Assembly (NCBI GenBank): GCA_963514005.1
Contig: OY740794.1
Coordinates: 53,444,001-53,508,000 of the forward strand
Length of the DNA: 64,000 nucleotides
DNA from: Raja brachyura
Taxonomy: Eukaryota
Direction: 5' to 3'
Below are positions 20,085 through 64,000 of this stretch, in pieces. Each line of letters starts with the position of its first letter. The stretch's first letter is position 1. The notes beneath the pieces were generated by a model. The model was not told where the DNA came from. It did not search any database and worked only from the letters and a program-made list of their open reading frames with translations. A program made the translations under genes and the position numbers.

Positions 20085-20094
20085 TTAGGAACCT

Positions 20095-29417: not shown

Positions 29418-29420
29418 CCG

Positions 29421-32327: not shown

Positions 32328-32381
32328 GGGGTGGGAGATTGCAACCTTCACGTGGTCCACCCTGTTTCAACGAATGCAATC
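32328..32381 (+). ncRNA. Minimal HDV/CPEB3-like self-cleaving ribozyme fold
   Basis: P1 GGGGUGG/CCACCCU (G1.U), P2 GAUUGCA/UGCAAUC, P3 ACC/GGU, L3 UUCACGU, GU then vestigial P4, J4/2 CGAA, in nested double-pseudoknot order. Confidence 0.85.
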
Positions 32382-32465
32382 AACCTGGCGTGCACAAACA
32401 GAAGATCAAACAGAATAAGTTGTCTCACAACTTTAGACTACGCATGCCATACGCAAGAAGAAGAA
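32328..32465 (+). mobile_element. ~140-bp non-autonomous retroposon with HDV-like ribozyme head and (GAA)n tail, copy 1
   Basis: TSD GGAAGGAGAAA(G) at 32317-32328 and 32466-32477; homologous along its length to 55815-55953. Confidence 0.88.
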
Positions 32466-34709: not shown

Positions 34710-35050
34710 ACACTGGTGCCGATGGCCATGGGGAGTGGGCCGGTCGGAGAAGTACCAGGGTATTGCCTCAAGGTCGGCTGCAGAGGTGCCCCCCGATACA
34801 CAAAGGTGGTCAGGGGAGGAGAGGGACATCGGTTTGCGGGCCAAGCCGGTCATGGGCGACGGAGAAGGCCCTGCAGTGGCCTGGGGCCTACCTGGATTTG
34901 GAGCCACTCCAGTACATCGAGCGCGTCGACTAGACGTTGAGCTTTTTTGTAAATGCTGCCAAATTATGGTGACTCGTGCAAATGTGATCTATGCCAAATG
35001 AATTCCACTGTACAGTGCACATGTGACAATAAAGCGTCATTGAAACATTA
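34710..35050 (+). mobile_element. Second copy of the 7335-7655 family
   Basis: Collinear similarity to 7335-7655 including GTGACAATAAA end. Confidence 0.7.
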
Positions 35051-35659
35051 AAGTCAGCTGATAATCAAAGCAGTGGCTGTTCTACCAGGACAGCATCATC
35101 CAATTTTCACTTTTTTCGCTTCCAGTTCTCAGGCTGTGTTCCCAGCACAAACACAGCTGGTAGGATAAAAGTAAGTGGAGATATTCATTTTATCTTCGAT
35201 GCTTTTAATAGGCATTTAAGTGTGCTTTCAGTATGTTCTATGTAAAAAAATAATGTTTCTTGAATGTTATGAGTAAAAGCTTTAACAGATGGTGAGTCTG
35301 GAGTGTGGCTCTCACTGGCTGTCAAATCCATTCTGCGTACAGTGTGTTGAGAGAGCCCTTGCACAGTACCTCTTGTGGAAGCCTGCACCCGGGGCCATGC
35401 TGGAATGAACAACATTGACTAGGACCAGGCTGCCAGTAATTTGAGATCAATGAGAGATATACACCATCGTTCTGCTGGAGCTTCCAGCACTGGGGCTCAG
35501 CAGTTAGTGCAGTTATTACAAAGCTCTGTTGGCCTGGGTTTGATTCTGACCTTGAGTACTGTCTGGCAGCAAACACTGCCTGTGACTGTGTGGGTTTCCC
35601 CCAGCTGCTTTGATTTCCTCTCGCATCCCAAACACAGGCTGGTTTGGAGGTTGTGCAGG

Positions 35660-36655
35660 GAGGAACTGCAGATCCTGCTTTAAACCGAAGGCATCGAAGT
35701 AACAAAAAGCTGACGTAACTCAGTGGGTCAGGCATCATCACTGCAGAAATGGAATAGGTGACGTTTTGGGTCGAGACCCTTCTTCAGGCTGAGGGTCAGG
35801 GAAAAAGGGAACGAGATATCGAACTGTTACTCAGGCAAAAATAATGCACAAAGCACCGATAATCAAGGAAAGGTGGAACACACAATGGTTCATTGTTGGC
35901 TGTGGAATAGGTGGTAACGAGTTACACTGTTGAACTCAACAGGATGACAGAGAAACTAGTATGACAACTAGGGCGGGGGAGAGACGGAGAGAGAATTGGG
36001 GATGGAAGAGCTACTTGAAATGTGAGAAAACAATATTCATACCGAAGATAAACACAAAATGCTGGAGTAACTCAGCGGGAAATGCAGCATCTCTGGAGAG
36101 AAGGAATGGGTGACGTTTCGGGTCGAGACCCTCCTGAAAGTCATGAGAAAGGGAAACGAGAGATATTGATGATGACGTAGAGAAATAGAGAAGAAATGAA
36201 TGAAAGATATGCAAAAAGGTAACAATGATAAAGGAAACAGGTCATTTTTAACTGTAGCTAGATGAGAACGAAAAGCTGGTGTAATTTGGGTGGGGGAGGG
36301 ATGGAGAGAGAAGGAATGCATGGGGTTACTTGCATTAGATAAATCAATGTTGTACTCCTGGGTTGTAAGCTGCCCAAGCTAAATATGAGATGCTGTTCCT
36401 GACAATGGAGGAGGCCCTGTGGGAATGTGAACGGGAATTAAAATGTTTAGCAACCGGGTGATCAGGTAGGTTCTGGCGGACTGAACGAAGGTGTTCAGCG
36501 AAACGATCTCCCAGTCTAAGTTTGGTCTCGCCGATGTATAAGACTCTACATCTTGAACAAAGGATACAGTAGATGAGGTTGGAGGAGGTACGTGTACCAC
36601 TATTCATACCAATATTCATACCGCTGGGTTGTAAGCTGCCCAGTGAAATATGAAT
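35660..36655 (-). mobile_element. Penelope-like element fragments: GIY-YIG endonuclease C-terminus plus tandem terminal-repeat units
   Basis: SSNLIYCILCSRCRVLYIGETKLRLGDRFAEHLRSV..PVAKHFN (36344-36619) followed by two terminal units with hammerhead-like cores. Confidence 0.88.
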
Positions 36656-38014
36656 GAATCGGCTGCTGTAAATTACAGCTTTTGTTAGTGGGTGGCAGAG
36701 GAATCAGAGAGTGAGTTGATGGGCAAACTGAGAATGGATCACATGGAAAACAAGTGGGGGAAATGGGATTGGTGAGAATGCTCCAGGGGCATTCTTGCAG
36801 AGACTAGATGGGTCCGAATGCTTACCTTCGCTGCTGTAAGAAAATTATGAAAATAGGAGAAATATAAAAATAGCTGATGTGTAATTTGACGAAAACAGGC
36901 CTTACGGCCCGACGAGTCCGCACTGACTATATACTTGCACTACCCTACACACCAGGGACAATTTACAATTTTTACCGAAGCCCAATAACCTACAAACCTG
37001 TATGTCTTTGAAGTGTGGGAGGAAACCGGAGCACCGGGTGAAAATCCATGGAGGTCACGGGGAGAACGTCCAAACTCCGTACAGACAGCGCTCGTAGTCA
37101 GGATCGAACCCGGGTCTCTGGCGCTGTTAGGCAGCAACTCTACCACTTGGTAGATGAAACGCTATAACGTTGTTCAATTGGGTTACATTTACCGAGTGTT
37201 TTAAAGCTAAAACATCCAGACGATGCTTGATTATTTTTTCTGCACACACACTTGTGCTCTGTGAATAAGCTGATTTAGAGAAATGAAGGAGGGGAACTCA
37301 ATCAGAATGGTAGCAGTCTTGCGTTCGGATGCCTGTTTGATATGAAAGGCAAACCTTCCTTTCGTAAAGTGGTGCCTTGCCAGTTTCAATGCCGGCAAAT
37401 CATCTGTTGAATGGGACATTCTCAGCCTGTAAAGTGGAAGTTTTCAAAGCCAAGTAGTACCCGAGACCTGAAGAGATTTCCACTCTGTTCAAAACTGTCA
37501 CAGTATAAAATATGCTTCTATGTCCTGGCTTCTCGGGCACACAATGCAAACAGTTAAGTAAAGCACATCCCATTGGCGTGGACTATAATGTCCTTGCCTT
37601 CCAAACACTCACAGCCAATACATCATCTACTGAGAATTCATTCGGACACAACAACCTACCACACCTACAGCAAATCCTTAACTCTGTACCAATACCATCT
37701 GAAAAATCTGAGAAATTACCAATGTGGATTTGTGGTAATTATTCTTAGCGTTTTGAAATTAAATCACAGGTTTTTATTTCAACAGTAATTTCAGCAAAGC
37801 TGTACAATTTAAGATGACATCTGATGGTCACATTTCACAACAAAATACATTAACTGCAAATTTCAGCTGCTTTGGCACTGTTGTTTCAACATTATACTCA
37901 CTTATTTGCTTCAAACTGTCTGTGCAATATATGCACACACTTTCATAGTGCATCCAATGTAGTCTGGTATATTGGTAGGGGCTACAGAATGCTCAATGTG
38001 CATTCATACCAGAA

Positions 38015-40820
38015 GTAGACACAAAAAGCTGGAGTAACTCAGCGGAACAGGTAACATCTCTGGATAGAAGGAATGGGTGATGTTTCGGATCGAGAGCCTT
38101 CTTCAGACTGGGAGTCAGGAGAGAGGGAAACGAGAGGTATGGAAGGGTAAGGTGTGAAAATAGTAAGATTAAATGATAACTTACCAGTATGAAGTTTGAT
38201 CTTTATTTTATGAGGAGTTGCGATGAGGGATTTCGTGAAGACCCCGCCAGCACGCATGCGCGACATTCTTCAAAGCAGCGGTGTGGAATCACAGAACTAT
38301 CCAGAAATGACTAGTATAGTAAGATTGAAGAGACTCTATATACCAGTTGACCTTATAGTAGAAGGTTGGGAGCGGAGGGCACAAAATCCCTCATTTCCCT
38401 CATCCCTTTGGAGACGGACATGCGTATCATAGAGGCTTGTACAATAAGCTCGTAGTCCGTGAAATGCTCCTAGCATCTCCAAATAATTTATACCTTGTGA
38501 TAATAGAAGGTTAGATTCATGTGAGTCCCATCTGCCGCCACAACTGGAAGTAGTGTCGGTAGCTCCCCAACCCTGGGCGCTTGCATCAGTTTGTAAAACC
38601 ACTGACGGGTAAGGCACAATGATGGGCTTGAATGAGTTACGAATATTATCAATCCACCATTGTAACTCAAATTTTGCCTTGATTGACAGCTGCATAGGTT
38701 TGTCAAAATGTCCAACATTCATTTTTAATGCTGAAATCTTTGTTCTTTGTAAATTTTGATAATGTAAAGGTCCAAATTGGGCAGCTGGAAATGTAGCTAC
38801 CAATTTCCCAATTACCTTAGCAGCATGTCTGATTGTCGGTGCACTGGCGCAAACAAGTTCATTACATGCTCCAATGATATCCATAGGTTTGTTTGCTGGG
38901 ATTGAAGCAATCATTTTATTGGTGTCAATCGTGAATCCCAGATAGTCCATAACCTGTGATGGGTAGAACTTAGATTTGGCTGGATGGATTACAAACCCCA
39001 TTTTTTTAAAACAATGATGTAGTAGCTGTTACTGCTAAATTTGTTGATTCCATGGTATCTCCTACTATTAGGATGTCATCCAAATAGGCCATAACTATAT
39101 GGTTCTGTCTCCTCAGTGTTGCCAATACTGGTTTCAATAATTTGGTAAATAATCTAGAGGCTGTAGTAAGACCATTATGCAGGGCTCTATATTGCCACAG
39201 CTGATCCATCCATACAAATTTGAAGAACTTCCGGTGATGTTTCCGTATGGATACAGAATAGTATGCATCTTTTAAATCGATGCATACCATGGGTATATGC
39301 TGGGGGGCCCAGCCACATATCTCCTTGAACTAGAGGACATAGGGTCCAGCTGCTGGAGATTGTGTTCCAGGAGACGCTCCATCATGCGCTCCATGCGTTC
39401 AATGCAACCGCCACCGACATCTGCGGACGACAAGTCGGCTTCCTCAGGTTCTGGGGAATCCCTGAGGCTTCTGTCATCAGCCCGCACCTCGTCGAGGTGA
39501 TAACACGGGTGCCGTGACCAGATGTCGCTGCCTGCCGCTGCTGCGGGGCTAGGATACCCCCGCGCGAACCTGCCACTGGTCCGCCGTCTTCCGGACGGAG
39601 GCGGCCCACTGGTCTGAAAGGACGTAAGCGGTGATAGGTCGGTCCCGGCCGCCGAAGCGTGGTGCCCCGACGTCCGCGCGGGGTTGCCGCCTGTCCTCCT
39701 TAGGGACGAAGGCGACATTCGGTCACGTCCTGCCGCTAAAGGGGGGTGCGGTGACCGAGATGAGACCTCACCGGCCCGTGATCTGGTGGGGTCCCCGGTG
39801 GTGAGTCTACGCCGGCCGCACCTGCGGGGCTAGTAGACCCCGGTCTCGATCCCTCACCGGTCCGCAGTCTGGCGGCCTGCTCTGGTGGAAAGTCGACCCC
39901 GGCTCCTTCAGCGGGGCTCACCGACTGGTGTGTGGCTCTTCCCCTGGTTCGCCCTCTGGTGACCTGAATGGCTGGGGAGAGAGAATGTGCTGTCGAGCGG
40001 GTAACACGCCTACGCATTTTAGCCATGCTGCCCCTATGTGTAGGGGACAGTGGCAAGGAGTCAGGGTCTTGCCTACCCTGGTCCTGCGCGGTGCTCCTTC
40101 TACTCTGCTGCTCTAAAGACAGCTGTGGTGGAGAGTCGGGTCCCGTTGGTGTAGGGCTTCCCAACTTCCGCGCCCTTTTCCCGGCCCGACAAGCGGGTGC
40201 TGCCGTTGTAGCGGGCAGCTCCGGGGTATGCAGCCGCTGACTTCTATCGGAAGTCCTGCGGCTAGAAATGCTCTTACTCCTGTCCATCGTTCCTGTGAAA
40301 CAAAACATGTTTTCCCCACAGGAACTAACCAACTCAAGGTTAGTTCCCCTTACCTGAGCGGTCCTTATGAAGGTCTGGTGGTGGAGTGCACTCCTCCTCC
40401 AGCCGTCGACAGCAACTGCGAGCGACGATATGTCGCGCATGCGTGCTGGCGGGGTCTTCACGAAGTCACTCACGTGACTCCGAAATGAAATGAGAGATCA
40501 AAGGGGACGAAGCTCAAGGAAAATATAAAATAGATCATTGTTAGCTAGGTGAAGGTGACAACGAGGCATACAATGTAAAATTTAATCAGGTAGACAGTCA
40601 GACGGGTCAGAGAACTAGGATGGGGAGGGATGGAGAGAGAGGGAAAGCAAGGGTTACTTGAAGTTAGATAAATCAATATTCATACCCCTGGGTTGCTAGC
40701 TGTCCAAGCAAAATATGAGGTGCTGCTCTTCCAATTGCATTGGGCCTTACTCTGACAGTGGAGGAGGCCCAGGACAGAAAGGCCAGTATGAGAATGGGAA
40801 ATGGTGTTAAAGCGTTTAGC
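38015..40820 (-). mobile_element. Penelope-derived element split by the DIRS insertion (38015-38160 and 40491-40820)
   Basis: Rejoined halves match the uninterrupted copy at 62235-62580; HSHTGLSVLGLLHC GIY-YIG tail at ~40700-40815. Confidence 0.85.
38157..40491 (-). mobile_element. Internally deleted DIRS element (related subfamily) with both termini, nested in a Penelope-derived repeat
   Basis: Same inverted termini; RT/RNase H fragment 38400-39290 (YLDD, TDASAQGWG); deletions remove YR/MT/most of the ICR (~38400) and gag C-terminus/RT N-terminus (~39290). Confidence 0.93.
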
Positions 40821-42874
40821 AAATGGATGTATGCAAGGCAGGCAAACTGTACATTGATGCTTGCTTGACAAACTTGAGGATTTCCAGTGAGAGAAACACT
40901 GCTTTTTTTTTGTGAACGTTGACGCTGCTACAGGCTGTCCAGTTGTCCGAGCCTTGACAACTGAAACAATTGTTTCTCGTAAAAATGGCTGGGAACCTTG
41001 TCACTTCTCCCTTGCCTCCCCTGGGACACAGATTGCATCGTCGTGATGGAGAGGCGTTGAGAATGCAGCCAGACAGTCCAAAGGAAGATGCCCTCTTTAC
41101 ACTGCATCTAACGAGAGATGGTGGCAGTGGAATCATAACAAAGTTGTGCTCAGTCATCGTACAGGTGGCAACATGTCTGTTCGACAAGAATCTTCTGCTT
41201 CTGTGTGGATCTCTGACAGATGCTGGGCGCCAGGTGTATAGGCCACAAGCCTGGATACACAGTTCATAGCTGTCTCTCACCAGGGTGACTGTAGTATTTA
41301 AGACCAGCATAAGGGTCTACTGGCTGCAACAATACATATTTTGTACACTTAGTGACTGACATTCCTTCCGATTCTGATACAACAACACTACGTTCTGCTA
41401 TGGAGCTCATAAGGTGATGTTAGTGAAATCATTCAACCCTTGCAAGAACGGGCAGATTGGTATCACTGCAAAAAATGACTGCGAATTAAGTACCACAGAC
41501 CAGCGAACTGTGGACGATTGCATGAAGAGGCATAGCTCCGACTCATTGTGGGGGGCAAGGATGATAGGGGTACTCTTCCTGCAGCGAGCATTCATTATGA
41601 ATGCACGATATTATGTATCACAGCAGACTAATGTGGCAAAGATAAGCACAAAGTGCTGGAGTAACTCAGCGGGTCAGGCAGCATCACTGGAGAAAATGGA
41701 TGGGTTACATTTCCTGTTGGGACGCTTCTGGTATAGAAAGAAGGGGGGGGGGGGGGTGGGGGCTGGAGTGCTGTGGACAAGAAAAGTTTAGGTCCCATCA
41801 GGGCAGCCACAAATGATCTCAGGTTGGGGAGTGCCTGGTAAGCCCATAAATAGGTTACTTAAACTTTGAGAGTATTTGTAAGTTGTAAGCTGATTTGGGA
41901 ACTGGGCATCGAATGAGCATTGCAAACAGAAACATCACCAATTAAGTAACTCTATACTTTAATATATAAATGCCCTTCAACATAAATTATCAATCTATTT
42001 ACATTATCCAGGAATGCAAGACGGGCTGAAAATGTGTGGTCCTGATTTGAATGCTCAATTGGAAATAAATTGGCAGCAGTGTTATTGGAGAACAAAAAGA
42101 CTCCAGTGCGACCCAATTTCATGGCCACAAAATATCACAGCACAGAATCATACTATATTATAACAAAAAAACTAAATTTCATAATATCTCCTTTGATAGA
42201 AATGATACCTCAGTTCAAAATCGTTGCGTTGACCTTGCGGCTTGCAAAATTTAAATCCCTCACACCTCCCGCCATGGTATTCATGGGAATTGTTTATACT
42301 TTAAAAATAAACAAAAATCAACGACTCCTTATGAAAACTATCAGCAGATCCTTCCGTTTCTTTCTCTCGAATGTACATACCTAATGTCCCCTTCAGTGTA
42401 ACAAGCAAGCTGGCTGCTGCATGTTTAACAGGGCAGGCAAATTCAGTTATCCCATGTGAACAGGACTTAATAAATGGGCTGAATACTCAGACATTAGACA
42501 AACAGAAGGCAGCCACTTGTGTTTGTAAGAGTTTCAACTATCACACACCAAAGGAAAAAAGACATAGCACTACCATGCACATGACAATTATCACATCCTA
42601 TGTTGAAGTTCAACCCAGTGGGATTAGTTGTCGAGCATAAATGCTCTGTAATTGCTAGTCCTTATCTGGTTCACAGATTCTAATACCTGAAGCTTATTTC
42701 GGGTTATGAAGCGTGTCTCGTCAAAAAAGTGGAGGGGCGGCAGCCCTCCCAGCCCCCCCGGTTCCGCGGTCCATGACTACAACTTTTTGTATCTTCTTCG
42801 TTTTAAACCAGCATCTGAAACTCCGTCTGACCAATCTGATATTGTCTGGTTTACGCCATTGACAAGAGTTATCC

Positions 42875-43672
42875 CTATAAAGTATAAAGTATAAAGTATC
42901 CTTTATTGTCATTCAAACTTTTAGTTTGAACTAAATTATGTGCCTTGCAGTCATGACAGAGAATAAAATAACAGAACACACAATAAACACAGTTTAACAT
43001 CCACCACAGTGAGTCTACCAGGCACCTCCTCACTGTGATGGAAGGCAAAAGTCTTAAAGTCCTTGTCTCTTCCTTCCTTGTTCCCCCTCTGCTTTGAGGC
43101 GATCCATGCGTTCAATGTTGGGCCCCCTGCCAGGTGATGGTAAGTCCCGCGGCCGATTCTGAGCTCCGCGAACGGGCCGGTTCAAACTCCGCGGCCCGGG
43201 GCGGACGAAGCGGCCACCCTCCAGTCCAGCGGACGAAGCTGTTGTTGCGGGAGCTCCGGAGAATCGGTCACCAACCTGGGACCTGCGAGCTTCCGAAGTT
43301 GTCGTCCACTGGGCCCGCGGCCGAAGCCTCCGAGGCTCCAAAGTCGGGCCGCCGCCGCAGCACCACCACAGCCCCGAAGTCGGCCAGCTTTGCGATGGAG
43401 AGTCCTGGCTCTGCCGCAGGAGCCTCGAGGTCGGTTCCAGTTGGAGGCCGCCAGCTCCACGATTAGGCCTCAGGGCAGACGGAGACGGAGATACGACAAA
43501 GAAAAGGTCGCATCCCCCCGAAGGAAGAGACTAAAACAGGTTTCCCCCGCCCCCCACACATACACAACTAAAAATAAACTAAAACATACGTCCAACAAGA
43601 CAAAAGAAACAAAAAAAAGAAAAAGACAGACGGACTGCAGGCGAGCCGTAGCTGCTTGGGCAGCGCCGCCAC
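42875..43672 (-). mobile_element. Composite GC-rich retroposon, copy 3, (ATACTTT)n tail
   Basis: Reverse complement has GGCGGCGCT..CCTGCAGTCCGTC head, same hairpin, GAATGACAATAAAG. Confidence 0.75.
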
Positions 43673-43814
43673 TTTAAGACCAAACTAAGGTTGCATCGTA
43701 ACGAAGAAATTAAATTTCATAATTTCACCTTTGATCTGAATGGAACCTCAGGTTAATATCATTTTATGTTGATATTGCAGCTTTCAACATTTAAATCCCT
43801 CACTATTCCAGCTA

Positions 43815-44420
43815 TTACAACATAGACCAGTACAGCACAGGAACAGGCCCTTCGACCCACAATGTCCGTGCCAAACATGATGCCAAGTTAAATAATCTCC
43901 TATGCCTGCACATGATCCATACCCCTCCATTCATATGCATATTCATGTGCCTATCTAAAAACCTCTTAAATGCTACTCTTGTGTCTGCCTCCACCAAAAC
44001 TCTTGTCAGCGTGTTCCAGATACCCACGACTCACTGTGTAAGAAGCTTGTGTAAAAAGATCTCCTTTAAACTTTGCTCATTTTACCTCAAAGCCATGCTC
44101 TTGAGTATTTGACCTTTCTGACGATCTGCCTTATCTATGCCTCTCATAATTTTATCTTCCTCCATCAGGTGTCCCTCAACCTCCAGCATTCCAGAGAAAA
44201 TAATGCAAGTTTGTCCAACCTCTTCTTATCGCTAATACCCTCTAATCCAGGCAGCATTCTGGTAAACTCTTCCATGCCCTCTTCATAACTCCAAATACAG
44301 CTTAACCAAAATCCTATTAAGCTGCAACATGACTTCTTCACTCTTGTACTCAATGTCCCGATCTATGAAGACAAGTATACCGTGCCACTTCTTTACCACT
44401 TTACCACCATGTGTTGCCTA
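43815..44420 (-). mobile_element. Older CR1 3' fragment
   Basis: FTRMLPGLEG..RLDKL.LFSLE; WNTL..VEADT..AFKRFLD. Confidence 0.8.
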
Positions 44421-46789
44421 GAACAATAACAACAACAGAATAAGTAATTAAACAGTCATTTACTAATTAAAGGCCAATATGGTGCAATATCCTAACTCTG
44501 AAGTACATGGATAGCGATGCTTCAGATCAGAAATGAGCAACACACCAAATTGACAATGAGGGAGAAATGAAAATTTTCATAATGAATTACATTATCAAAG
44601 TAGTGCAGCCTTGCTTCCAACGGATAGGAAACCCTGATATATTTTCTCATTGCTTCACGAACTATGATGTTAACTACAGACAAAGCCAAATTCATTTTCT
44701 GTATCAACAAGTCAAAATATCACAATGCTCCAAAATCTCCCTGCATTCTGCTGATTAAATATCAGGATGATGATGTTAGGATTTTGCTCTGCTATCTTTT
44801 ACAAATGGCACTAGAGGAAATGACACAGCATTGAGGATGTAAAGCATTTCACATGTGTTGAATAAGAGAAGCCAGTATGAAATTGGTTGCGGCTGCAAAC
44901 ATTGCTCAAATATTTGCTTATAGTTTCCTGAACTGTATCAACTTAACCAACAGGAACAATGCAGGAAAGATCGTTCTATTTGATTCAGACAAATAATACC
45001 CACATGTTAATGGAACAATCAATAACTACAGAAATTAATTATTAGTTTATACACAGCAAAATAGTAGCAACAGCAAAATCTGATATATTGGATGAATTAA
45101 ACCGTTGCAGGGTCATTTTTATTCAGCTACTCGCCCACGTCTTAGCTTTGAGCCGTTCATCTAAGCATTTAACTCACGTAACACTAACCACGGGAAACTA
45201 GAAGAGCCTTCAGTATATTTATTATAATCAATTGCTGGATGCCCCTTCTAGTTCAGTGAGTGAATGCACATGCTGCCTCATGCTCTCACCCATATGAATG
45301 GAAGAAATGAAGCTGCTGCAGGAATCTAGAGCTGATGCCAAGTGGTCCACATTCAGGCAGTTTTCAATTTCATTCAATCTAAAAGCCGACACCACCAATG
45401 CAAAAACGGGACAGGAGAATTGCAGGTTAAAAGTGTACAATTATATCATACATTGCATCGTACACTATAACCACAAGCCATTCACTGTTAAATATTTGTG
45501 TTCAACAAGTAGCAAATCCTATTTGAAATAAAAAGTTTTGTTTTCCATCTGTAGGCACAGCCTTTGAGCAGAGCTTTTACTATATTACAAAAAAAAAGTG
45601 CCGGAGTAATTCAGCGAGTCAAGCAGCTCCTCTGGAGAACATGAATGGGTGGATATTCAGCGGAAAGCCAAGAGATGTACATTGAAAGGATAGAGGTAAA
45701 ACTGCAAAGGAAACTGAGGAAATGAAGAGTGTATGAAAAATATATTGTCAAATACTGGGTAAATCAATTGAAATATGTTTCATAACCTCATAAAGAACAA
45801 GTGGATATGCATGGAAATAGTCAAGTCAATTAGAAACCAAAAAATATATACGCTGTGTGGAGGTGGATGTTGGTACGGTTTGGCTGCTGAAGTTATGGGT
45901 TAGAAGTGTGAAATATTAGATATGATAAGCCTAGTAAAAGAAGAGAAATCACTAGACCTGAACAAGAAGTATCTCGAGGTGATAAAAGATGCACTAAAAA
46001 TAAATTTTCAATCCTTCCAGACTGCAGGGGTGATACCAGAGTATTGTGGAACTGTTAATTTAGCACCTATGTTAAATTGTCAGTTAATTTAACTTTGGTG
46101 AATGCAATGGCAAAGGTCAATATAAACATTTACTGAGAACAGCACAGATTAATCAGACAGTCACCGTGGATTTGTAAAGGGAAGATCGTGTCTGAAGCAA
46201 TGATTCATTTGAATTGAATAAGATAGCAAGGATTGCAATGAGAATATTATGCAAACATTGATTTTAGTAAGGATTGTAGAGGGTACAGGGGTGATTTGGA
46301 AGGATCTAGCTGAAAACACCCATGCCGAAAAATGGGGTCAACTACGCAGACGCAAAAGATTGCAGTTACAAAAAACAGACTGCTGGAGGAACTCAGCATA
46401 GCAGGTCGCTGTGTGACATATCCTACCACAGATGCAGCCTGTTCCGCTGAGTTCCTCCGACAATTTGTTGGCTTTGAAACAGAAGATGCTGAGGGGAGAC
46501 TTTAATCACAGTGTTCAAACTTATGAAGGCCCAAGAGTAAGTGGGAAAGGACTTTATATTGAAAAGTTCTTTATCAGTGGAAAAGATGCAAAAGACCAAA
46601 TGGTCTCCTTTTGTGGTGTAGCTTTTCTGTGATTACGCGGACCACAAGTCTGCCACCTCAGTTAATCATTTGGAGTATCAGTGAGCATTCCATTTAACAT
46701 ACAACAAATTTACTGGACATGGACACAATATGCTGGAGTAACTTAGCGGGTCAGGCAGCATCTCTGGGGAAGAATCGGCAAGAAGTAAT

Positions 46790-47050
46790 GGGCCTGTCCC
46801 ACTTAGGAGATTTTTCAGTCGCCTGAAAAGTTGGGAACTGGAACGGCGACTGTCAGAGTGGAACACACAGACAAACACAACGCTTCCTTCACCAGCCCGT
46901 GTGAATTTTTTATACAGCGCTCCCCCCGCTTGCCTTGCCTAAACAATTCACACGGTGCAAAGCCAAGGTGATACAGACACACACAGCGATGAACAGGAAT
47001 GTTGGCGCTGTAAAAAGACGGCTAAAGTGTACGGTAAGTCCCTTGAAAGG
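46790..47050. mobile_element. Possible truncated MITE inserted in a Penelope-derived unit
   Basis: Begins GGGCCTGTCCCACTTA (TIR-like); the host unit resumes at ~47075; second TIR not found. Confidence 0.4.
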
Positions 47051-49689
47051 TGGGGGGGGGGGGGGAAATAAACTAAACGGAATAGGTGATGTTTCGAGTC
47101 GAGACCCTTCTTCAGATTGAGAGAGATAGATTCTAGAAATGGATGGCTTGGTTTTTATGTCTTTACATTTTTAATTGTTGTATTTTACATTGTTGTTTTT
47201 AAAATCACCACATACCTCCAAACATACAACTCCATAACCCTCGGAGATATCTACGTCTACGCAATATTGGACTCTAGACCATTCTTAAACTCTCCACCTT
47301 TAATAACTGCCCCATTAGATTCCTTAGATGGCACACCAACAATTTTTGGTTCACTTGATAATGCTCCTGTGATAGGCCATAAAATATTTTTGCAATGTTA
47401 AAGATGCTATTTAAATTTTAAAAATAGCTTAATTTAACCTGCATATGAGGCCATGTTAATCTTTAAAAAGATTTAACAAGAATCTGAGTGGCAATATTCT
47501 CAAATGTTTCCATGGTGGGTAAATGTAGCGAGCTGCCAGAGGAGATAGTTGAGGCAGGTAGAATAATAACATTTAAAGGACATTTGGACAGGGAAGGTTT
47601 CGAGGTATATAGGATTTGTGGTAACTCTTCAAAATAATCTTAACCTTCAATTCTATCAGATCAGATCCAGAATTGGGAACAGATTTGATACATAATTATA
47701 CACTACATCCCTCACTCACACAATTCTTAGATGTAAAGAGTTATATATTGCCTTTAGCAAGACTCTTAAAAAGCCATGTTTTGTTTTCCTTTACTTTGCT
47801 CATTAACCCAGGGCCATTGTTGAGTAGGAACAATTCTCCAAACAGCATAAATCACAGCTGAACACTCCATGAACACTCTCTAATAAAACTTCACTCTGTT
47901 CATTCGCCTTGTATTTCACATAACCCATCAGAGAAAATAGAGACCTTCAAGTTTGTTTCTTAAGATGTCTGCATTCTTACCCCAAGCTAAAATACTTGGC
48001 CTCGGTAAAAGGCCGTATGAAATAGCTCTGCAGAGAGATGAGGAAACATGGATTACATGCAGGCTAACAAAACCAACTGACCAGCAATCCTCAAGTGTGT
48101 GAAATGCTTGGCAATTTTAATTCAACATTCTGAACTGTTGCACAGTCAAAATTTAAATTTTAATGTATTATTGATTTGTGACCAAAGGAATTCAGCAATA
48201 GTATTGTACAGAATTTCTGTTATTCCAAGTGCACATGATTTTTTTGATCCCGTAACTATCCATATCATAATATTTTATGAACAGTAGAACTTTAATTATT
48301 GAAAGTGTTCTTTTTTTATTTTGCATTCAAGCATAATTGCAATAATTATCTACAATAAACTGATAATCAACCCAGCATAGATTGCCATTTTAAATTAGAT
48401 CCTTAGCACCATTAGTTTAGTTTAGTACAGCGTGGAAACAGGCCCTTCGGCCCATCGAGTTCGCAAAGACCAGCAATCACCAATACACCCAGCTCTATCC
48501 GACACACTAGCCAATTACAGAAGCCAATTAACTTACAAGCTTGCACGTTTGGTCACATGGATAACGTACAAACTCCACACAGACAACACCCATAGTCAGG
48601 CTCGAATGTGGGTCTCTGGCACAGTACCACTGCGCCACTGTGCCGCGCACAGGAACCCTAGGGATAATCTACTGAATTTGGACAATAGACAACATATTTT
48701 CAGTATGCATTCTGAATGGTCAGGAAAAAAGGGAATATTTACAATTGATGAGGTTTTTTTCGTCCATCCGATCCACAAAGGGAAACTTAAAATGTATTCA
48801 CTGTGTTTCTGCAAGAGACCAGCTACAGTTTAATCCAGTGAGACTAATGGATCTGAGAGAAAAAAAAAGTTTTTGTGACAAACCAAAGATATGCATGAGA
48901 TACTAATACAAAGCTATTTATCATGACCAATGAATCTTTATTTTGGATGCCTCCAGTAGAATAGGAAAGATTTTCTTTATTAATCTACTTCTGGTTAAAA
49001 TTCAAAGACCAAATTTAATTTGATGGAAACATTGATATGATGGGGGGGGGGGGGGGGGGGGGGGGGTGGGGGAGGGGGGAGGTGCTGTACTTTTGCCCTT
49101 TAAATTTAACAAATGCGGAGATTCAACATGTAACATTGGTCAGGGTTCAGCAAATGAAATATAATTGTAAAAGATTGTAAACTTACAGGCCTGGATAGAT
49201 GTACGATGGCTCACAGAGCAACTAATAAAGTATGAGATGAAGTGTTGCAAGATCTTAGATGCAATCATAAAGTAATGGGAGGTTTACTTTAATGCTGGTT
49301 GGAGATTTTTGTCAATGGCTATCAGTAATTTCATCAAGCTCTGAAGCAGACAGGTTAAAGGGTTGTATTTATATCTGGGAAATTGTTAAATGTTTACTCT
49401 AGAAAATCAATCTATGATGTATTTGACAGGCGATCCGTCCATAAGAGAGTTTGTTCTGAATTTTTGATAACAAGGAACTGCAGATGCTGGTTTATAAGAA
49501 AGAAAGATACAACATGCTGGAGTAACTTAGAGGGTCAGGCAGCATCTTTGGAGAACAGTGAGGAGTGATGTTTCGTGTTGGAATCCTTCTTCAGACCTTC
49601 AGAATGTACTCAGACTAGGAAACGGGAACAAAAACACAGAGACTCAGCTGGAATGATTTCAAAGGCTCGGGTGAGTTGATATATCTCTT

Positions 49690-50320
49690 CATGATCTGTG
49701 GTCCAGTGTCGCTCAACGCTATTTGAATTACTAATGGTTGTGTGATAGAGTGATTTTCACACAAAAATACTGACATAGTGCAGGGCATGAATAAAGACCT
49801 TCCTTCCAAAACTTCTCAGGCAACCGGTGTAATATAAATATTTTGATGGTGTGACAAATGCTGATAAGGCGGTGCATTTCGCTGTCAAATTTTTAAACTC
49901 TCTGTCATCACCTGGTATGAGGTTACATAATCTTGAACTAAAAGTAGCTATAATTGTGCTGCTCGGGAATTTGTACCCACCGATACTACACGGCAGCACA
50001 GAGTAATCAGTTCAGAAATTACTGTGACATGTAATAATGACTGGAAATGCTGTTGGGGAAATGTCCTCATCCCTCAGATACCAATTATCCCATCTGATCT
50101 ACCTTTCCAATTCAAATGACTTCAGTTCCCTGTTCAACTTAATGCTATGAGCATTAACAAGGTGCAAGGCCAATCACTAAAAGATGATGGTCTTAATTTC
50201 AAAATTCAATGCTTTGACCATGGTCAGCCTAATGGCGATTGCTCCAGAGTTGAAGATGAAATAATCCATACATTTTTACACCAGATGCAAAAGGAAGAAT
50301 TGTGGTACATTCTGAAAAAT
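49690..50320 (+). pseudogene. Degenerate Helitron PIF1-like helicase C-terminal fragment
   Basis: WLCDRVIF; FLNSLSSPGMRLHNLELKV..LLGNL.PP; VLIPQIPIIPSDLPFQFK*LQFPV; AMSINKVQGQSL..CFDHGQ...CSRV, collinear with Helitron RepHel motifs. Confidence 0.88.
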
Positions 50321-53300
50321 GTCTGTCTTGAATCAAGTACATTTACACATTGCCCTCGCCTAAAGAGAATTATATTAAATGTAATTTTAGTACATAAACA
50401 CTGCCCAACTTATGCAATAGGCGACTTACAATAACTAACACTTATGTAAACAAATCTATACTCAGTCCCTGGTGCACTCAAGGCAGTTTGTAATTTCCAC
50501 AACACTGTACGATCGTTCAAGTTTACATCGGAAAGAAGCCAGCAATGGTGGCAGTGCACACCCAGAAAACCTTTAAGGTGAGAGGGACAAAGTTTAAACG
50601 AGATGTTAATGGCACTTTTTTATTTACTTTATATTTTATTTAGAAAAGAAGGTGATAAGTACCTGTAAAATGCTGCTGGGGATGATGGTGGAGGCAGATA
50701 CGACAGTGGCATTTGAGAGACTTATGTATGGGCAAATGGCTAATCAGAGAATGGAGGGATATGGGTCAGGTGCAAGAGATAAGAGTTGGTCTTGGCATCA
50801 TCTGTAGCACAGATATTGTGGGCCAAATGGCCTGTTCCTGTGCTGTTTTGTTCTATGCTCTATGCTCAATTAATCTACATAATCACCACTAATATTATTA
50901 TTCACTGAATAATTATAGATTTAAATTAGATCTTATTTCAATTACATGGAGTGTCATAAAGCACGATTGCATGGGAATAGATGCAAGCATCGTGACTGCC
51001 AGCATAATAACCCATGTAACGTGGGATGCAGCAACTTGTTTTCAATAAGATTCCATGTAAGAAAGTGTTGGCTAAAATTAAAATTCATGGCATTGGGTCA
51101 GACTGGGGACCAGGTTGGAAGATTGCCAAAGTGGTCAGAGAGATAGAACTGATGGGTACCTATTTGAATTGGAAGGAAGTCATTTGTGGTGTCCCAAATG
51201 CAACAGTGCTTAGGGCTCAATGACCTTTATTAATGACTGAAATAAACCAATAGAGAACCACGCAGCCATGTTTGCTGATGACACAGATGGCTGGGATGCT
51301 AAGTAGTGAAGATGCAAGATAGCATAACGAAGAATTATGTGAGTTGGAAAATATTGTGCAGATGGATTTCAATTTATTAATTATCAGGTTAGTCCCCCAG
51401 AATTTAGATTGCTAGGTTTTGGTTTGGCATGAATATTAAAGGCTAGAGGAAATAAAGTGAGGAAGCAGGGCTATGATTCTGTTCAGCCATAAAACAAAGT
51501 GAAAAGTAAAATCGACTTGAGGGTTTCAAACGCCTTTTCACATTATCTACATTCCTTTCAGAATTATTAAAACAATTTAATTATGCTGAGGACATGGAAT
51601 TGACACTTCACACTTACATTTAGCAACATTTTTTTAACATAAAGTGAGCTGCCGGAGGATGTAGTTGAGGCAGGTACTATCTTAACGTTTAAGAAACATT
51701 TAGACTGGTAGATAGACCTAGAATTCTGGTCGCAGTGGGATAAGCAGCATCTCTGGAGAGAAGGAATGAGTGATATTTCAGGTCGAGACCTTCTTCAGAC
51801 CCTGCTTGACCCGCAACATCACCAATTCCTTCCCTCCAGAGATGCTGCCTGTCCCGCTGAGTTACTCCAGCATTTTGTGTCTATCTTCGGTTTAAACCAG
51901 CATCTGCAGTTCCTTCCTACGCATTTAGACAGGTACTTGGATAGGACAAGTATAGAGGGATTTGGGACAAAAACAGGCAGGTGGGACTAGTGTAGATGGC
52001 ACATGTTGGTCGGTGTGGGCCAGTTGAGTTGAATGGCCTGTTTCCAGGCTGTATGAATCTATGTGAATTAGAATAAATATTTTGAAAATAGTACAACTTA
52101 ATACCAGCTTCACTCAGCGAAGATGGAATTGTTGCATTTTAACATACAGTGATGTGAAAGAATTAAAAAATATATATATTGGATCTGTGCCTCTGCCCAA
52201 GAGATTAACCCCAGAAACAAATGGTAATTTCAATTATTTTTCACAAGTAACCAGCTGACCTATTGGTTTGGCTGGAATTGGTGCTCTAGCTCTTTGGAAG
52301 TGTAATGCTGTCAGACAAGTGGAATTATTCCTGGAACTGCTCACAAATTGGACCAGTTTCGGGCATCAGGGACATAAGATCAAACTCTTGGAATATTGAT
52401 TCAAACAAGAAAATCACCGGGAGCTTAAAAAATAAATGGTAAACAAACTTAAGAATTTAAAAGGGCTGGAAATCAGTTATGGAAAATAAATCCCAACAAA
52501 ACTGTTTGCAATTAATTTGCCAAGAATGTATTTATTTACCCTAAAATAAAATTTCTTATCGTAGAATTGTTTCATGCAATTTCACACAGGCCAGTAGTAT
52601 GTCTCTATCAAAGGCCATGATTGTACCAATGACTGCTCAGTTACTGTGTGTTAAACAAAAGACATAAGCAATTTATACTTATCAGGCACATTTGAAAAGG
52701 AATATATGATTGGTTAAGAAGAAATGTGATACGGGTCCAACATTTAATTGGTGGCACCCTTAGTTCCAGAGCCTTGCCCTATGATCCGTTTTGCCTGACC
52801 AACAGAGGTCATGGCCTCGGGGAGGGGGCCAGATTTCGGCCGTAAAGTCGGCCATGGAAGCTATGAGAATGGATCTTCCAGCTCCAACTGCAGGCTGTAA
52901 ATGCGACCCGCCGATCGGCCGTGGAAGCTCCGATGAGGTTGAGATCAGCCACCTCACCCATCCTCAGTGCCACATCTTCAGGGAGGGGTGGGGGGACTTC
53001 CAGGGGGAGGGGGATTTCAAGTGCACTCTCATAATTTTTCGTAACAGATTAAAGGAGGTGCCGAACCACCAGCTGCTGCAAAATCAGTGCTGGGGCTGTA
53101 CTTGACTTAAAAGTTAACATTAGACTCCAAGTATATTCCATCGTAGCAATCCTTGTCACTAAATGGTGCGAGTCTATATTTATTATAGTTAGACATTTAG
53201 GGAGTTAAATACATGCAACTTGCTACTTTACTGCTTTTACAACACTCTAAAAATATTTTTTATCCAATAAAATAATTTTATGCAGTCGCGTGTATAAATA

Positions 53301-54498
53301 ATCAGATATGTTACTGTTATCTCGTGTTCCTAATCTTGCTTTCAGCCACTATATTTGTGCAAGTGTGCATTGTATTTAACAGAGGTTAACATATTGAACG
53401 TGTGATTGAGACTCTCCACTTCCTGCCAGAACAGGCATGCAATACTGCGGCATTAAGCATAACGTATCATAGGTAAGCTAATTTTTAGTCAACATGAATA
53501 TGGTTTGGAGATTTTCCATTCCAGTTTCATTCTCCTCTCAACATGATCTAGAATGTCATATTTTTTCCCCACCAAAAAATTTCTAACCCTCTCCTTATCC
53601 CCTCAGTAGAATTTGACCTAATTGCCTCTTGAATTGTCACAATTTGTAATATGGAAGAGCAGGATTTTAATCACAGGATGCATCAGAGCCTCACCAGGGG
53701 CCCACAGTTAGCAATAGCAGTCTGCACCAGGAACCTCGTATATTTTGGAAACAGATGTACAAGATTGATACAAAGTGCTGAAGTAACACGGCGGATCAGG
53801 CAGCATCCCTGGAGGAAAAAGAATGGGGTGACATTAGGGGTCGGGACCCTTCTTTGGACAAGGCTGAAGTGAACTGCTAAAGTAAGCTGCCCAACAATTC
53901 TTTATTCCAAATACCCAGGGCAGAAGGTGTGTTCATTCAAAGCGAAGTGTACATGGAGCATTCTCATAATGGTTACGCTATGAGGCTGGTAACCCACAGA
54001 GCCAGAAAAATCCCATTTAAATTCCACCAGAGTACCTTAAGAATTGGCAAACAAATCGCTGGAGTAACTCACTGCCAGCATCTGTGGAGGATAAAGGATG
54101 GGTGACCTTTTGGGTCGAGACCTGACAGGGTCATCGGGGCAGACAGTTCGGAGGAGAGACAGCCTGCAGGTAGAGGTAAGGAGATGGGGTGCGACAGGGG
54201 CTGGCAGGTGACAGGTGGAACCAGGTGGGGAGAGGGCTGCCGGGCAGGTGGAACCTGTTAGGGAAGGGAATGGGCAAGTGGTGGAGTAGACAGAGAACAG
54301 CCAGTGGAAGGTAAGATTGGATAAGGAAAGAGTAAACATTCTTCCCCTTTTCTTTCCTCTCTTCTTAGTTTCATCCTTCGCTTTTTGTTATTAAACACAA
54401 AAGTACAAAACAAGATGGTGTATATTCATACTATAACCTAGAACTACAAATCTTATCGCGTTAGTATCATAAAAAAGATTGCTTTTTATTTTCACATA

Positions 54499-55953: not shown

Positions 55954-56988
55954 ACTAGATGTAAGTGACATCTTAGCTACATCTGAAGACAGACATAAAA
56001 TGCTGGAATAACTCAGTGGGACAGGCAGCATCTCCGGAGAAAAGGAATAAGTGACGTTTTGGGTCAAGACCCTTCTTCAGACTGAGTGTCAGGGGAGAGG
56101 GAAACTGAGAGGGAACCAGTCTGTGGCGCCCCCTCCTTGAACAGCTGATCCCATTTCTTCCTGTAATGCAGATGTTTCTGCAAAGATGTGCTCTGATTCA
56201 CTGTCTATATCCTGATCTGGTTCTCATTATCGCAGTAATATTTCCACATCCAAAAACAACTGATAAATCATCTTGAATTTCAAACTGAAGCAGCAGGCAA
56301 AGATGTTCGTGGAAATTGACGCAAAATGCTGGAGTAACTCGTCAGGTCAGGCAGCATCACTGGTGAAGAGGAGGAGGTGATGTTTCGGGTTGGAACCCTT
56401 CTTCAGACTGAAGGCCAAAGATGTTCAGTTTAGTTTAGTTTAGTTTAGTTTAGAGATACAGCATGGAAACAGGCTGTTCGGCCCACCGAGAAAAGACACA
56501 AAAAGCTGGAGTAACTCAGCGGATCAGACAGCATCTCTGGAGAAAAGGAATAGGTGACATTTTGGGTCACGATCCTTCTTCAGATGGCATCTGCATCTGC
56601 AGTTCCTTCCTACACCTTTGGCCCACAGAATCCATGCTGACCATAGATCACCCATTCTCACTAGCTCAATCTTATCCTGCTTCCTCATCCATTCAATACA
56701 TACTAGGGAGTAATTTACAGAGGCTGATTAACGTACAAACCTTCATGTCTTTGGGAAGTGGGAGGAAACCGGAGCACCAGGCGGAAACCCATACGGTCAC
56801 AGGAAGAACATGCAAACTCCACACAGACAGTACCTGAGGACAGGATCAAACCTGAGTCTCTGGCGTTGTGAGTAGCAGCTCTGCCAGCTGTGACACAATG
56901 CCATCAATTTTTAAATGTCAAGAATATTTTCAATGAAGACTCAGCTAAATGGGGTGGCTTGTGCTTTTAATTACATACAACTATAGAT

Positions 56989-58331: not shown

Positions 58332-58501
58332 CGTTAAGAAGGAACTGCAGGTGCTGGAGTAACTCAGTGGGACAGGCCGCATCTCTGGAGAAAAAGGATG
58401 GGTGTCGAGAAGGATACCCGACCCAAAACGTCACCCATCATTTTTCCCCAGAGATGCTGTCTGAGTAACCCACTGAGTTACTCTGGCACTTTGTGTCTAT
58501 C
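58332..58501. mobile_element. Fold-back Penelope-derived mini-element
   Basis: Inverted halves; TSD TCCCATATT 58323-58331 and 58502-58510. Similar fold-backs at ~1945-2150 and ~51745-51920. Confidence 0.8.
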
Positions 58502-58708
58502 TCCCATATTTGATAACCTGGCAGTTGGGGTGTTTTCTCCTTGCCTCACTCAGGTGCCTAGATCTTGCTAGCAAATGCCAAAAATCTTGAGCAGAATCAC
58601 CACCATTTAACAGTTAAAATGGAAGCAAGTCTGGAAATGCCATGCACGCATCATTAAATGCACTAGCTCCAAACTTACTGACTGATTCAAAACATCATTT
58701 CACCTCAT

Positions 58709-62234: not shown

Positions 62235-62580
62235 TTGACTTCTACAACTTCAAGTAACCCTTGCTTTCCCTCTCTCTCTCCATCCTCCCCCCTTCCCAAT
62301 TCTCCGACCAGTCTGACCGTCTCCCTGATTACATTTTATCTCTGTTCGCTTTGTTGTCATCTTCTCCCAGCTAACAATGGTCGATTCTACACCTTCCTTG
62401 AACCTCATCTCTTTTGATGTCACGTTTTGACACCTCCTCCTTCCTTATCGCTGTGTCTCCCTCACCCCTGACTCTTAACCTCTGAAGAAGGGTCTCGACC
62501 CGAACCCGAAAGGGTCACCCATTCCTTCTATCCAGAGATCCTTGCTGCCTGTCCCGCTGAGTTACACAAGCATTTTGTGA
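62235..62580 (+). mobile_element. Penelope-derived terminal unit ending ~50 bp from the exon-1 donor
   Basis: Same family as 38015/40491; degenerate CTGAAGAAGGGTCTCGACCCGAA core at ~62482. Confidence 0.8.
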
Positions 62581-62628
62581 CCGTTTCCTTCTCGAAAGAC
62601 ATGTCACCATTCACTAAAGATCACTCAC

Positions 62629-63250: not shown

Positions 63251-64000
63251 GACACAATTCAAAAAAACACCTGTTAATTTACTGCGAGTGTTATTCATCG
63301 GGACAATGCGCCACAAATTTTACTCTCGTGGGGTCATTTTTAAAGACGCGATCTCTGCTGCTTCTGAAATATAGGGTTAATATGGGCTTCCGAAATATGG
63401 CTTAAAATAGAGTTGTGGACATTCGTGATTCCGCAAAGAATGTAAAATAAATGTAATCAGATTTTAAAAAACCTGTTGTGGTTGGTAAGGGAAACGGTGC
63501 CAATGCTTTGCAAATAGAACATGGGCTGAGCACGTGAACAGCCCTGCCTGAAGAAGGGCCTCACCCGAACATCAGCTATCCATGTTCTTCAGAGATGCTG
63601 CCTGACCTGCTGAGTTGCTCCAGCACTTTGTGTCCCTTTGTGTTTTAACCAGCATCTGCCGTTCTTTATCTCTACATGAACAGGCCCTTCGGCCCACAAT
63701 GTATGTGCCAAGCATGATGTCAAGATAATCTGATCTCCCTTGCCTGCACACAATCCATATCCATCCATTGGCTTCATATCCATTAGATCAGAACTATTAA
63801 GTAATTCGCTCGATTTTTCATTTCCAAGCAAAATAAGCGATAGGGTGGTGGAGAGATCTAGTCAGTGAAGAGTTGGGATTGTTGGTCAATGGGACAGTTT
63901 CTTTTTATCTCCCTTGATTCACGTCCAGCGCTCGCATGGTGCGTGCAAATCCATGGAAACTGGTGCCAAAGTACATCTCAAGGGAATAACCACTCTTCCC

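What the first reader, a model, noticed from the sequence alone, without database searches (positions are those of the whole stretch)
56377..56409. Hammerhead-ribozyme core repeated in 15 or more Penelope-derived mini-units
Seen: consensus of copies near 15095, 35758, 36110, 38077, 47085, 49564, 51770, 56051, 56377, 56553, 62482 and 63548 is AGU CUGAAGA A GGGU-CUCG-ACCC GAAA CG UC AC, i.e. CUGANGA, stem II, GAAA, tiny palindromic stem III, NUH. Stem II co-varies (GGGTC/GACCC vs GGGTT/AACCC). Known: Penelope-like elements carry minimal type I hammerheads thought to work as dimers. Most copies are CpG-decayed, stem I is short and there is an extra A. Most lie in the DOCK sense orientation.
Basis: partly seen in the sequence, partly recalled or inferred. 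Interest (0 to 1): 0.7.

Follow-up and report, generated by a model that had tools for sequence, protein, structure and literature searches.

The report
Decayed hammerhead-headed Penelope retroelement leader copies
These short repeats are decayed end-pieces of a very abundant Penelope-like jumping gene that carry an already described minimal hammerhead ribozyme motif, broken in every copy in this window, and their sharp common start point likely marks the capped, uncut beginning of the element's RNA.

Summary
The repeat is real: 30 copies in the window, roughly 1.2 million genome-wide (450 in 970 kb sampled). It is the 100-135 nt terminal repeat (pLTR plus 'tail') of a Neptune-type Penelope-like retrotransposon. 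It lies just behind the RT/GIY-YIG ORF and, in tandem junctions, 167 nt before the ORF's ATG. The consensus matches the published minimal hammerhead of these elements, including the 'extra A' and the ACGU palindrome. Three first-reader claims fail or are unsupported: the stem II 'covariation' is at chance level (10 vs 8.7 expected); the strand bias is not significant (19:11); 0 of 30 window copies is intact, and the catalytic G12 decays like any CpG. This scan's notes report the same kind of element in other genomes. One addition: 5' ends pile up within a few bases of AGTCTG, just ahead of the core (44 of 100 young copies; 1 at the GUC site), with a single-position excess of G in front. This suggests the mini-units are run-off copies of a capped, uncleaved 5' leader. 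No RNA ends or cleavage were tested.

The parts
56311..56409 (-). The finding's copy: solo pLTR of a Penelope-like element, starting at AGTCTG (A+1 = 56409); hammerhead motif 56409-56377; would-be cleavage site between 56379 and 56378; G16.2 changed to A breaks the stem III palindrome
55975..56083 (-). Neighbouring copy with pyrimidine-rich 3' UTR remnant upstream; G12 changed to A (inactive core)
56484..56584 (-). Neighbouring copy; G12 lost, stem II broken
36344..36703 (-). Decayed GIY-YIG endonuclease fragment of the parent element (open frame of 119 aa; Pfam GIY-YIG E=0.0016, below the curated cut-off)
36036..36340 (-). 3' UTR remnant (about 36340-36140) and hammerhead unit (36135-36036, CUGA lost) directly behind the GIY-YIG fragment: the link to the parent inside the window
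35666..35790 (-). Copy with UTR remnant and tail; G12 changed to A
38002..38109 (-). Copy with UTR remnant; stem II and palindrome broken
15012..15168 (.). Copy of the UUCG-loop variant (15128-15012, minus) with a short inverted arm (15140-15168, plus)
47077..47116 (-). 3'-truncated copy; palindrome broken
49478..49596 (-). Copy starting GG|TCTG; stem II and palindrome broken
51707..51909 (.). Head-to-head inverted pair of units
58350..58509 (.). Head-to-head inverted pair (long hairpin; source of the sub-threshold Rfam AEV_CRE and mir-7578 hits)
62481..62586 (+). Copy on the plus strand with a small insertion in the GAAA region
63546..63659 (+). Copy on the plus strand with tail; stem II and GAAA broken
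1939..54122 (.). Further decayed units: 1939-2019(-)/2016-2149(+), 2449-2543(+), 6905-6994(+), 15989-16066(+), 17450-17552(-), 31201-31318(+), 41637-41729(-), 45585-45660(-), 46370-46469 (pair), 46710-46773(-), 53759-53859(-), 54049-54122(-)

Best explanation
The repeats are decayed solo copies of the 100-135 nt terminal repeat of a Neptune-type Penelope-like retrotransposon, whose minimal hammerhead likely worked only in the RNA of active parent elements and is broken in all 30 copies in this window. Shown: the unit lies behind the RT/GIY-YIG stop codon and, at tandem junctions, forms the first 133 of the 166 nt before the ORF's ATG. Copies end at about +93 to +99 or +130 to +135, start mostly within a few bases of AGTCTG, and show an excess G just before the start. 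Inferred: transcription starts at the initiator-like YCAGTCT. The element's RT starts inside this leader at two sites (as shown in vitro for the lizard element PAc) and runs to the cap, copying it as an extra G, so most insertions are just the leader; priming at the downstream repeat of a read-through RNA gives copies that run on into the 3' UTR and ORF. Templates were mostly uncleaved, because almost no copies start at the GUC site. The ribozyme (2-bp stem I, 4-bp stem II, ACGU stem III possible only between two copies) would need a partner copy or the element's protein. After insertion the copies drift neutrally.
For: Parent link: 18 of 19 loci with a called GIY-YIG ORF have a same-strand unit within about 320 nt of the ORF end; 14 aligned 3' ends run stop, UTR, unit; RT and GIY-YIG Pfam hits; CX4CxxC linker in L023 and in 104 of 120 homologs. 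Leader: the tail continues into one shared sequence in about 11 of the first 100 listed (by eye); its translation matches the first ~70 residues of full-length homologs (best E 3e-11 within the 120 hits), ATG at +167. Ends. 5' pile-up in the young family, anchored downstream of the cleavage site, first 100 of 36,629, by eye: 45 run into the UTR, 44 start at -4 to +5, 11 at +6 to +35, only 1 at +32/33; 1 of 100 breaks between -7 and -25 (by eye). Extra G: G|AGTCTG 3,221 vs W|AGTCTG 3,316 (49% vs 35-37% background); G|GTCTG 5,440 vs Y|GTCTG 4,360 (55.5% vs 32-36%). In 17 unrelated-flank copies G is at -1 in 13, and at -2 to -5 in 3, 2, 1 and 4. Neutral decay: G12 changed in 62 of 192; within the two larger, younger subfamilies core and downstream non-CpG sites differ no more than chance (p=0.23, 0.83). 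All 6 subfamily consensuses keep the core and stem II.
Against: Pooled over subfamilies, four non-CpG core positions are less diverged than 21 downstream A/T positions (4.5% vs 8.9%, p=1.6e-5), and one of three subfamilies shows this alone (3.8% vs 9.7%, p=0.003). I read this as constraint on parent lineages plus unresolved subfamilies, but some constraint on copies is not excluded. The transcription start is inferred only from DNA junctions. The same AG follows a pyrimidine tract and could be a 3' splice site, as in D. virilis Penelope. Two of 42 young copies in the random sample start at +32 and 4 of 450 HMM hits start at +32, so a small cleaved-template fraction is possible. The 100 copies are the first on one contig and include a few duplicated loci.
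Confidence: 0.8

Rival explanations
1. Ordinary 5' truncation with a physical stop: the units are 3' ends of the element, and RT stalls or switches template just ahead of the hammerhead because AG|TCTG is a 3' splice site with splicing factors bound to the pyrimidine tract, or because of RNA structure or a second-strand nick. There is no promoter here.
For: A pyrimidine tract plus CAG precedes the core in the UTR-bearing copies. In D. virilis the intron's 3' end maps to the 5' end of helix I (PMC4209133). Heavy 5' truncation and inverted arms are standard for these elements (PMC8557442).
Against: It does not predict a one-position G excess. No recurring spliced first exon appears upstream of 34 unrelated-flank copies, and no GT..AG joint into the site is among the 15 joints shown of 51 in contigs of four runs (weak). 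None of 7 independent loci that hold the repeat-to-ORF junction extends more than 1 nt upstream of A+1 (small n).
Confidence: 0.25
2. The mini-units are a self-propagating retrozyme-like family: tandem or circular RNAs that cleave as dimers at GUC and are copied by the Penelope RT.
For: Short head-to-tail units with two intact motifs exist: 191 nt in L173, 239 nt in L170, 190 nt in L024, 360 nt in L010. About 9% of sampled copies (41 of 450) are intact. A dimer with 4-bp ACGU stem III is formally possible (-12.7 kcal/mol).
Against: No pile-up of ends at GUC. In 970 kb of random DNA no same-strand pair within 500 nt has both motifs intact, and inverted pairs outnumber direct ones 140 to 50. The tandems each have different junctions. 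The predicted dimer MFE (-21.1) is a different fold, and monomers do not fold as hammerheads. In Xenopus 8 of 9 predicted dimers did not cleave (bioRxiv 10.64898/2026.07.22.740005).
Confidence: 0.07
3. Copies in this region are host-selected, sense-oriented intronic ribozymes that cut or tune a DOCK pre-mRNA.
For: 19 of 30 copies are on the minus strand, the DOCK strand; pooled non-CpG core sites are better kept than downstream sites.
Against: Bias p=0.20; 0 of 30 intact; copy density (30 in 64 kb) equals the genome average (464 per Mb); no DOCK exon found in the window.
Confidence: 0.02

Closest known systems
Minimal hammerheads (min-HHR) in pLTRs of metazoan Penelope-like elements (Cervera and de la Pena 2014, PMC4209133)
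   Same: CUGANGA + one extra base + G-C-closed stem II + GAAA + palindromic 15.2/16.2 + NUH; located in the pLTR; mostly dispersed single motifs from truncated elements; 2-bp helix I also listed for Culex, D. virilis and Oikopleura.
   Different: No cartilaginous fish among the alignment rows I saw; the copy number here (about 1.2 million units, about 9% intact) far exceeds the 4,000-9,000 reported for coelacanth and Xenopus; stem II is 4 bp, at the short end.
PAc (Poseidon of Anolis; Frangieh et al. 2024, PMC11167929)
   Same: Hammerhead at the pLTR-ORF junction; two RT start sites that define the optional 30-40 nt tail; uncleaved RNA is the dominant template; no RNA-seq ends at the cleavage site.
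   Different: This element has the Neptune/Nematis CX2-5CxxC linker; its ATG is 167 nt from the unit's start rather than inside stem II; the sharp 5' boundary with extra G was not described in the parts I read.
Neptune-clade EN+ Penelope-like elements (Craig et al. 2021, PMC8557442)
   Same: Single ORF with RT then C-terminal GIY-YIG, CX2-5CxxC linker, partial tandems, inverted 5' arms, tail.
   Different: No tree was built, so Neptune versus Nematis rests on the motif and host group.
Non-LTR retrozymes (bioRxiv 10.64898/2026.07.22.740005)
   Same: Non-coding, type I hammerhead, derived from pLTRs; rare short tandems exist here.
   Different: Units here are dispersed monomers or inverted pairs, not tandem arrays; no evidence of circles.
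Adineta vaga Penelope pLTRs (Arkhipova et al. 2013, PMC3846280)
   Same: Defined-length pLTRs with tail, solo pLTRs, palindromes at inverted junctions, an initiator-like motif in the pLTR.
   Different: Low copy number there; that paper favours an antisense template and self-priming, whereas the junction G here points to a capped sense template.

Membership tests
EN+ Penelope-like element | Single ORF with RT and C-terminal GIY-YIG endonuclease | tested here: met
   L023 695-aa ORF: RVT_1 E=9e-5, GIY-YIG E=0.0017 (below cut-off; over cut-off in L025); 2,407 homologs at E<=1e-30
EN+ Penelope-like element | pLTR present both behind the ORF and before its start (partial tandem) | tested here: met
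   Unit behind the stop in 18 of 19 loci; unit then ORF N-terminus in junction loci. Not seen together in one intact element.
EN+ Penelope-like element | Optional 30-40 nt tail and inverted 5' arm | tested here: met
   3' ends at +93 to +99 and +130 to +135; 140 inverted neighbour pairs in 970 kb
Neptune (or Nematis) clade | CX2-5CxxC linker ahead of GIY-YIG | tested here: met
   CX4CxxC at residue 562 of L023; 104 of 120 homologs
Neptune (or Nematis) clade | RT phylogeny | not tested
   No reference set of named clade members was on hand
Penelope/Poseidon clade | Absence of the CX2-5CxxC linker | tested here: not met
   Linker present
PLE minimal hammerhead | CUGANGA-H, GAAA, NUH core with G10.1-C11.1 and palindromic 15.2/16.2 | tested here: met
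   All 6 subfamily consensuses against the published consensus; not met by any of the 30 window copies
PLE minimal hammerhead | Compensatory changes in stems | tested here: not met
   No two-sided change above chance; only wobble-keeping changes (U-A to U-G in stem II and stem I)
PLE minimal hammerhead | Self-cleavage as dimer or with protein | not testable with these tools
   Only contigs were available; they cannot show RNA ends
Non-LTR retrozyme | Head-to-tail tandem monomers each with an intact hammerhead | tested here: not met
   0 same-strand intact pairs within 500 nt in 970 kb random DNA and none in the window; 4 independent short tandems in loci picked for young copies
Non-LTR retrozyme | Abundant circular RNA | not testable with these tools
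   No raw reads offered

The most novel reading that the evidence does not exclude
The million mini-units are a fossil 5'-RACE library of the element: complete cDNAs of the capped 5' leader, made when the Penelope RT primes at its internal start sites in the 5' copy and runs to the cap. The hammerhead then sits 31 nt from the cap, so cleavage would decap the mRNA. With protein-assisted cleavage this would be a negative feedback switch (and, with the upstream ATG at +54, a translation brake), not a step that makes the transposition template.
Probability: 0.45. Interest if true: 0.55.

Novelty: new member of a known kind. Interest (0 to 1): 0.3.

Why it matters
The element class and its minimal hammerhead are known, and this scan has noted them in other genomes, so the finding as written is ordinary. 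What the hammerhead does for Penelope-like elements is still called unclear in the papers read (PMC8557442, PMC11167929). This genome's copy number turns insertion junctions into a statistical record: templates were uncut at the ribozyme site, and their 5' ends carry what looks like a cap signature 31 nt upstream of it. If confirmed, this fixes the transcription start, explains why solo pLTRs dominate, and gives a testable role for the ribozyme (decapping, self-limitation) in place of monomer processing.

Tried and rejected
Rfam scan of the window: no hammerhead family; the sub-threshold AEV_CRE and mir-7578 hits are the inverted pair at 58350-58509. Single-strand folding of four units gave no hammerhead fold and z-scores of -0.4 to +1.2. 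Public runs: only assembled contigs were offered. Four laid on the element's 3' end (two flagged as probably DNA) cover it and show loose ends at the AG|TCTG boundary, but cannot show RNA starts, cleavage ends or expression; not used as evidence of transcription. One search placed stem I on the wrong columns; it was repeated correctly. DOCK exons in the window: Pfam on 175 short ORFs, 17 long ORFs, a motif search and inspection found none; ORFs under 34-38 aa and masked DNA were not examined. My first label 'Poseidon' was dropped because of the CX4CxxC linker. Host-exon splicing into the AG as source of the 5' boundary was rejected by eye, since flanks from known repeats do not stop at GT donors. 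Lunse et al. (PMC5785218) is not held; only its title was seen in a reference list. No extended stem I was found with the upstream UTR, as both sides are pyrimidine-rich.

Full report
Observation. The minus strand at 56409-56377 reads AGU CUGAAGA A GGGU UCCA ACCC GAAA CA UC AC. The bare pattern CUGANGA...GAAA is not above chance in the window (10 matches vs 5.5 +/- 2.4) and Rfam finds no hammerhead. A profile search, however, shows 30 copies of a 100-120 nt unit (E<1e-3), including all 12 named. In 97 stretches of 10 kb at round coordinates there are 450 units, about 464 per Mb or 1.25 million genome-wide; a reversed control on 400 kb gave 0. The window's density is therefore average. The closest named protein relatives (63-73% identity) are from sharks and rays, so the host is likely a cartilaginous fish.

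What it is. A GIY-YIG fragment at 36703-36344 lies just upstream of the copy at 36135 on the same strand. Searching the genome with it gave 62,250 candidates, 150 scored, and I fetched 20 with long open frames. Nineteen had a called GIY-YIG ORF, four with RT as well, and 18 of the 19 had a same-strand unit within about 320 nt of the ORF end. An alignment of 14 such ends from 13 of the loci shows stop codon, pyrimidine-rich 3' UTR, CAG, the hammerhead motif, about 65 further bases, then in some copies a 36-nt tail. The 695-aa ORF of L023 has RT and GIY-YIG hits and a CX4CxxC linker, shared by 104 of 120 listed homologs. Passages of PMC8557442 assign this linker to Neptune and Nematis and say Penelope/Poseidon lack it. 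About 11 of the first 100 tail-bearing copies continue into one shared sequence (by eye). Its translation matches the first 70 or so residues of full-length homologs, and its ATG is at +167 from the A of AGTCTG. The unit is thus both the 3' end of one copy and the 5' leader of the next: a pLTR. Young copies end at +93 to +99 or +130 to +135, like the two internal RT start sites shown in vitro for the lizard element PAc (PMC11167929, parts 1-2 of 4 read).

The ribozyme motif. All six subfamily consensuses from 198 near-full copies keep CUGAAGA, the extra A, GGGU/ACCC, GAAA and CGUC; they differ in loop II, position 1.1 and downstream. This is the published min-HHR consensus of PMC4209133 (main text parts 1-2 of 4, supplementary file 2 parts 1-2 of 3 read; file 1 could not be searched). 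That paper lists the extra base, the palindrome and 2-bp helix I examples, reports such motifs in fish Neptune, Poseidon and Xena elements, and found weak cleavage only in dimers or extended constructs. Monomers do not fold as hammerheads here; the forced dimer scores -12.7 against -21.1 kcal/mol for another dimer fold.

Are the copies constrained? Mostly no. 41 of 234 copies covering the core are intact (41 of all 450), and 0 of 30 in the window. G12, the general base (PMC6155905, passages), lies in a CpG and is changed in 62 of 192 copies, more than a downstream CpG G (40 of 193). The claimed covariation occurs in 10 of 295 copies vs 8.7 expected in divergence-stratified permutations; on the window alignment the four real stem II pairs have no two-sided change. 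Against this reading: four non-CpG core positions are less diverged than 21 downstream A/T positions when subfamilies are pooled (35 of 778 vs 358 of 4,008; p=1.6e-5). Within the three largest subfamilies p is 0.23, 0.83 and 0.003 (downstream columns over 25% diverged were dropped). The simplest reading is selection on parent lineages and neutral decay of copies. Neighbours within 500 nt are inverted in 140 cases and direct in 50, with no direct pair both intact. Four short tandems with two intact motifs were seen in loci chosen for young copies. Orientation in the window is 19 minus to 11 plus (p=0.20). A DOCK gene lies on the minus strand 117-160 kb to the left, but I found no exon in the window.

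The 5' boundary. Anchoring the young family downstream of the cleavage site gave 36,629 copies. Of the first 100 listed (one contig, a few duplicates, counted by eye), 45 run into the 3' UTR, 44 start between -4 and +5 around AGTCTG, 11 start between +6 and +35, and 1 at the GUC site. Only 1 of 100 breaks between -7 and -25 (by eye). In the random sample, 57 of 73 copies with an exact core start have unrelated or inverted flanks, with similarity fading by about -5; HMM starts show no peak at +32 (4 of 450), and 2 of 42 young copies start there. The base just outside the boundary is G more often than expected: 3,221 G|AGTCTG vs 3,316 W|AGTCTG, and 5,440 G|GTCTG vs 4,360 Y|GTCTG. That is 49% and 55.5% against tri- and dinucleotide backgrounds of 35-37% and 32-36%. 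In 17 unrelated-flank copies G is at -1 in 13 but at -2 to -5 in only 1-4. An extra G at the 5' end of full-length cDNA has been attributed to copying of the m7G cap (PMC4038843, passages, citing L1 work). YCAGTCT fits the initiator consensus (recalled, no call). I infer that the element's RNA starts here, capped, and that mini-units are run-off copies of the uncleaved leader. This agrees with the PAc result that cleavage is not needed for insertion and that no reads end at the site. The rival is a stop at a 3' splice site or bound protein: in D. virilis the intron ends at helix I and transcription starts further upstream (PMC4209133; PMC2377424, passages). Public runs were contigs only and do not decide this.

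Novelty. The element type, the motif, solo pLTRs and tails are described (also PMC3846280 and PMC6765202, passages; bioRxiv 10.64898/2026.07.22.740005, parts 1-3 of 5, supplements not seen). Seven notes of this scan, six on this kind of animal element, concern other genomes; look-ups by sequence and by place found none. My searches turned up no paper on a chondrichthyan family of this size, or on a cap-like G at Penelope 5' junctions; the library lacks most subscription papers and Repbase reports, and unseen supplements may cover this family. Verdict: a new member of a known kind, interest 0.3; the leader and cap reading has probability about 0.45 and would merit about 0.55.

Noticed in passing
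L173 (G000:C1:10462001-10472000), L170, L024, L010: Short head-to-tail units (191, 239, 190 and 360 nt) with two intact hammerhead motifs on one strand; those in L173 and L170 include the first 55-100 nt beyond the tail. Natural dimer substrates for a cleavage test.
   Followed up: partly
young-family leader, +54 to about +180 (L170, L171): An upstream ATG opens a frame of about 41 codons that overlaps the main ATG (+167) out of frame; the main ATG sits in AAG|GTATGC, which also resembles a splice donor.
   Followed up: no
window 19319-23333 (-) and 38336-40497 (-): Fragments of a DIRS-type (tyrosine recombinase) retroelement: RT, RNase H-like and integrase SAM-like pieces (Pfam Phage_int_SAM_4 E=1e-4; the DIRS label is recalled).
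   Followed up: no
window 54498-55721: Tc1/mariner element with 214-nt inverted ends (95%) and a transposase fragment.
   Followed up: no
window 40680-41000 (-): A second GIY-YIG-like C-terminal fragment of the same element by eye; no Pfam hit.
   Followed up: no
window 204-592, 5227-5859, 12220-13805, 17616-17925: 3' fragments of a CR1/L2-type LINE (label recalled), and many copies of a SINE-like family (families D5, D7, D10).
   Followed up: no
window 1075-1540: GC-rich tandem repeat with 21-, 47- and 68-nt periods.
   Followed up: no
PMC4209133 supplementary figure S3: Several published hammerhead rows (Xenopus, Trimeresurus, Nasonia, Ixodes, Camponotus) have UCAG or UAGU a few bases ahead of the core, so the initiator-like or acceptor-like site may be a general feature.
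   Followed up: no
G000:C14:53284335-53327513 (-): DOCK gene (DHR-2 lobe A and C2 exons; no DOCK_N hit on this contig) 117-160 kb left of the window; whether the window lies in its first introns is open.
   Followed up: partly
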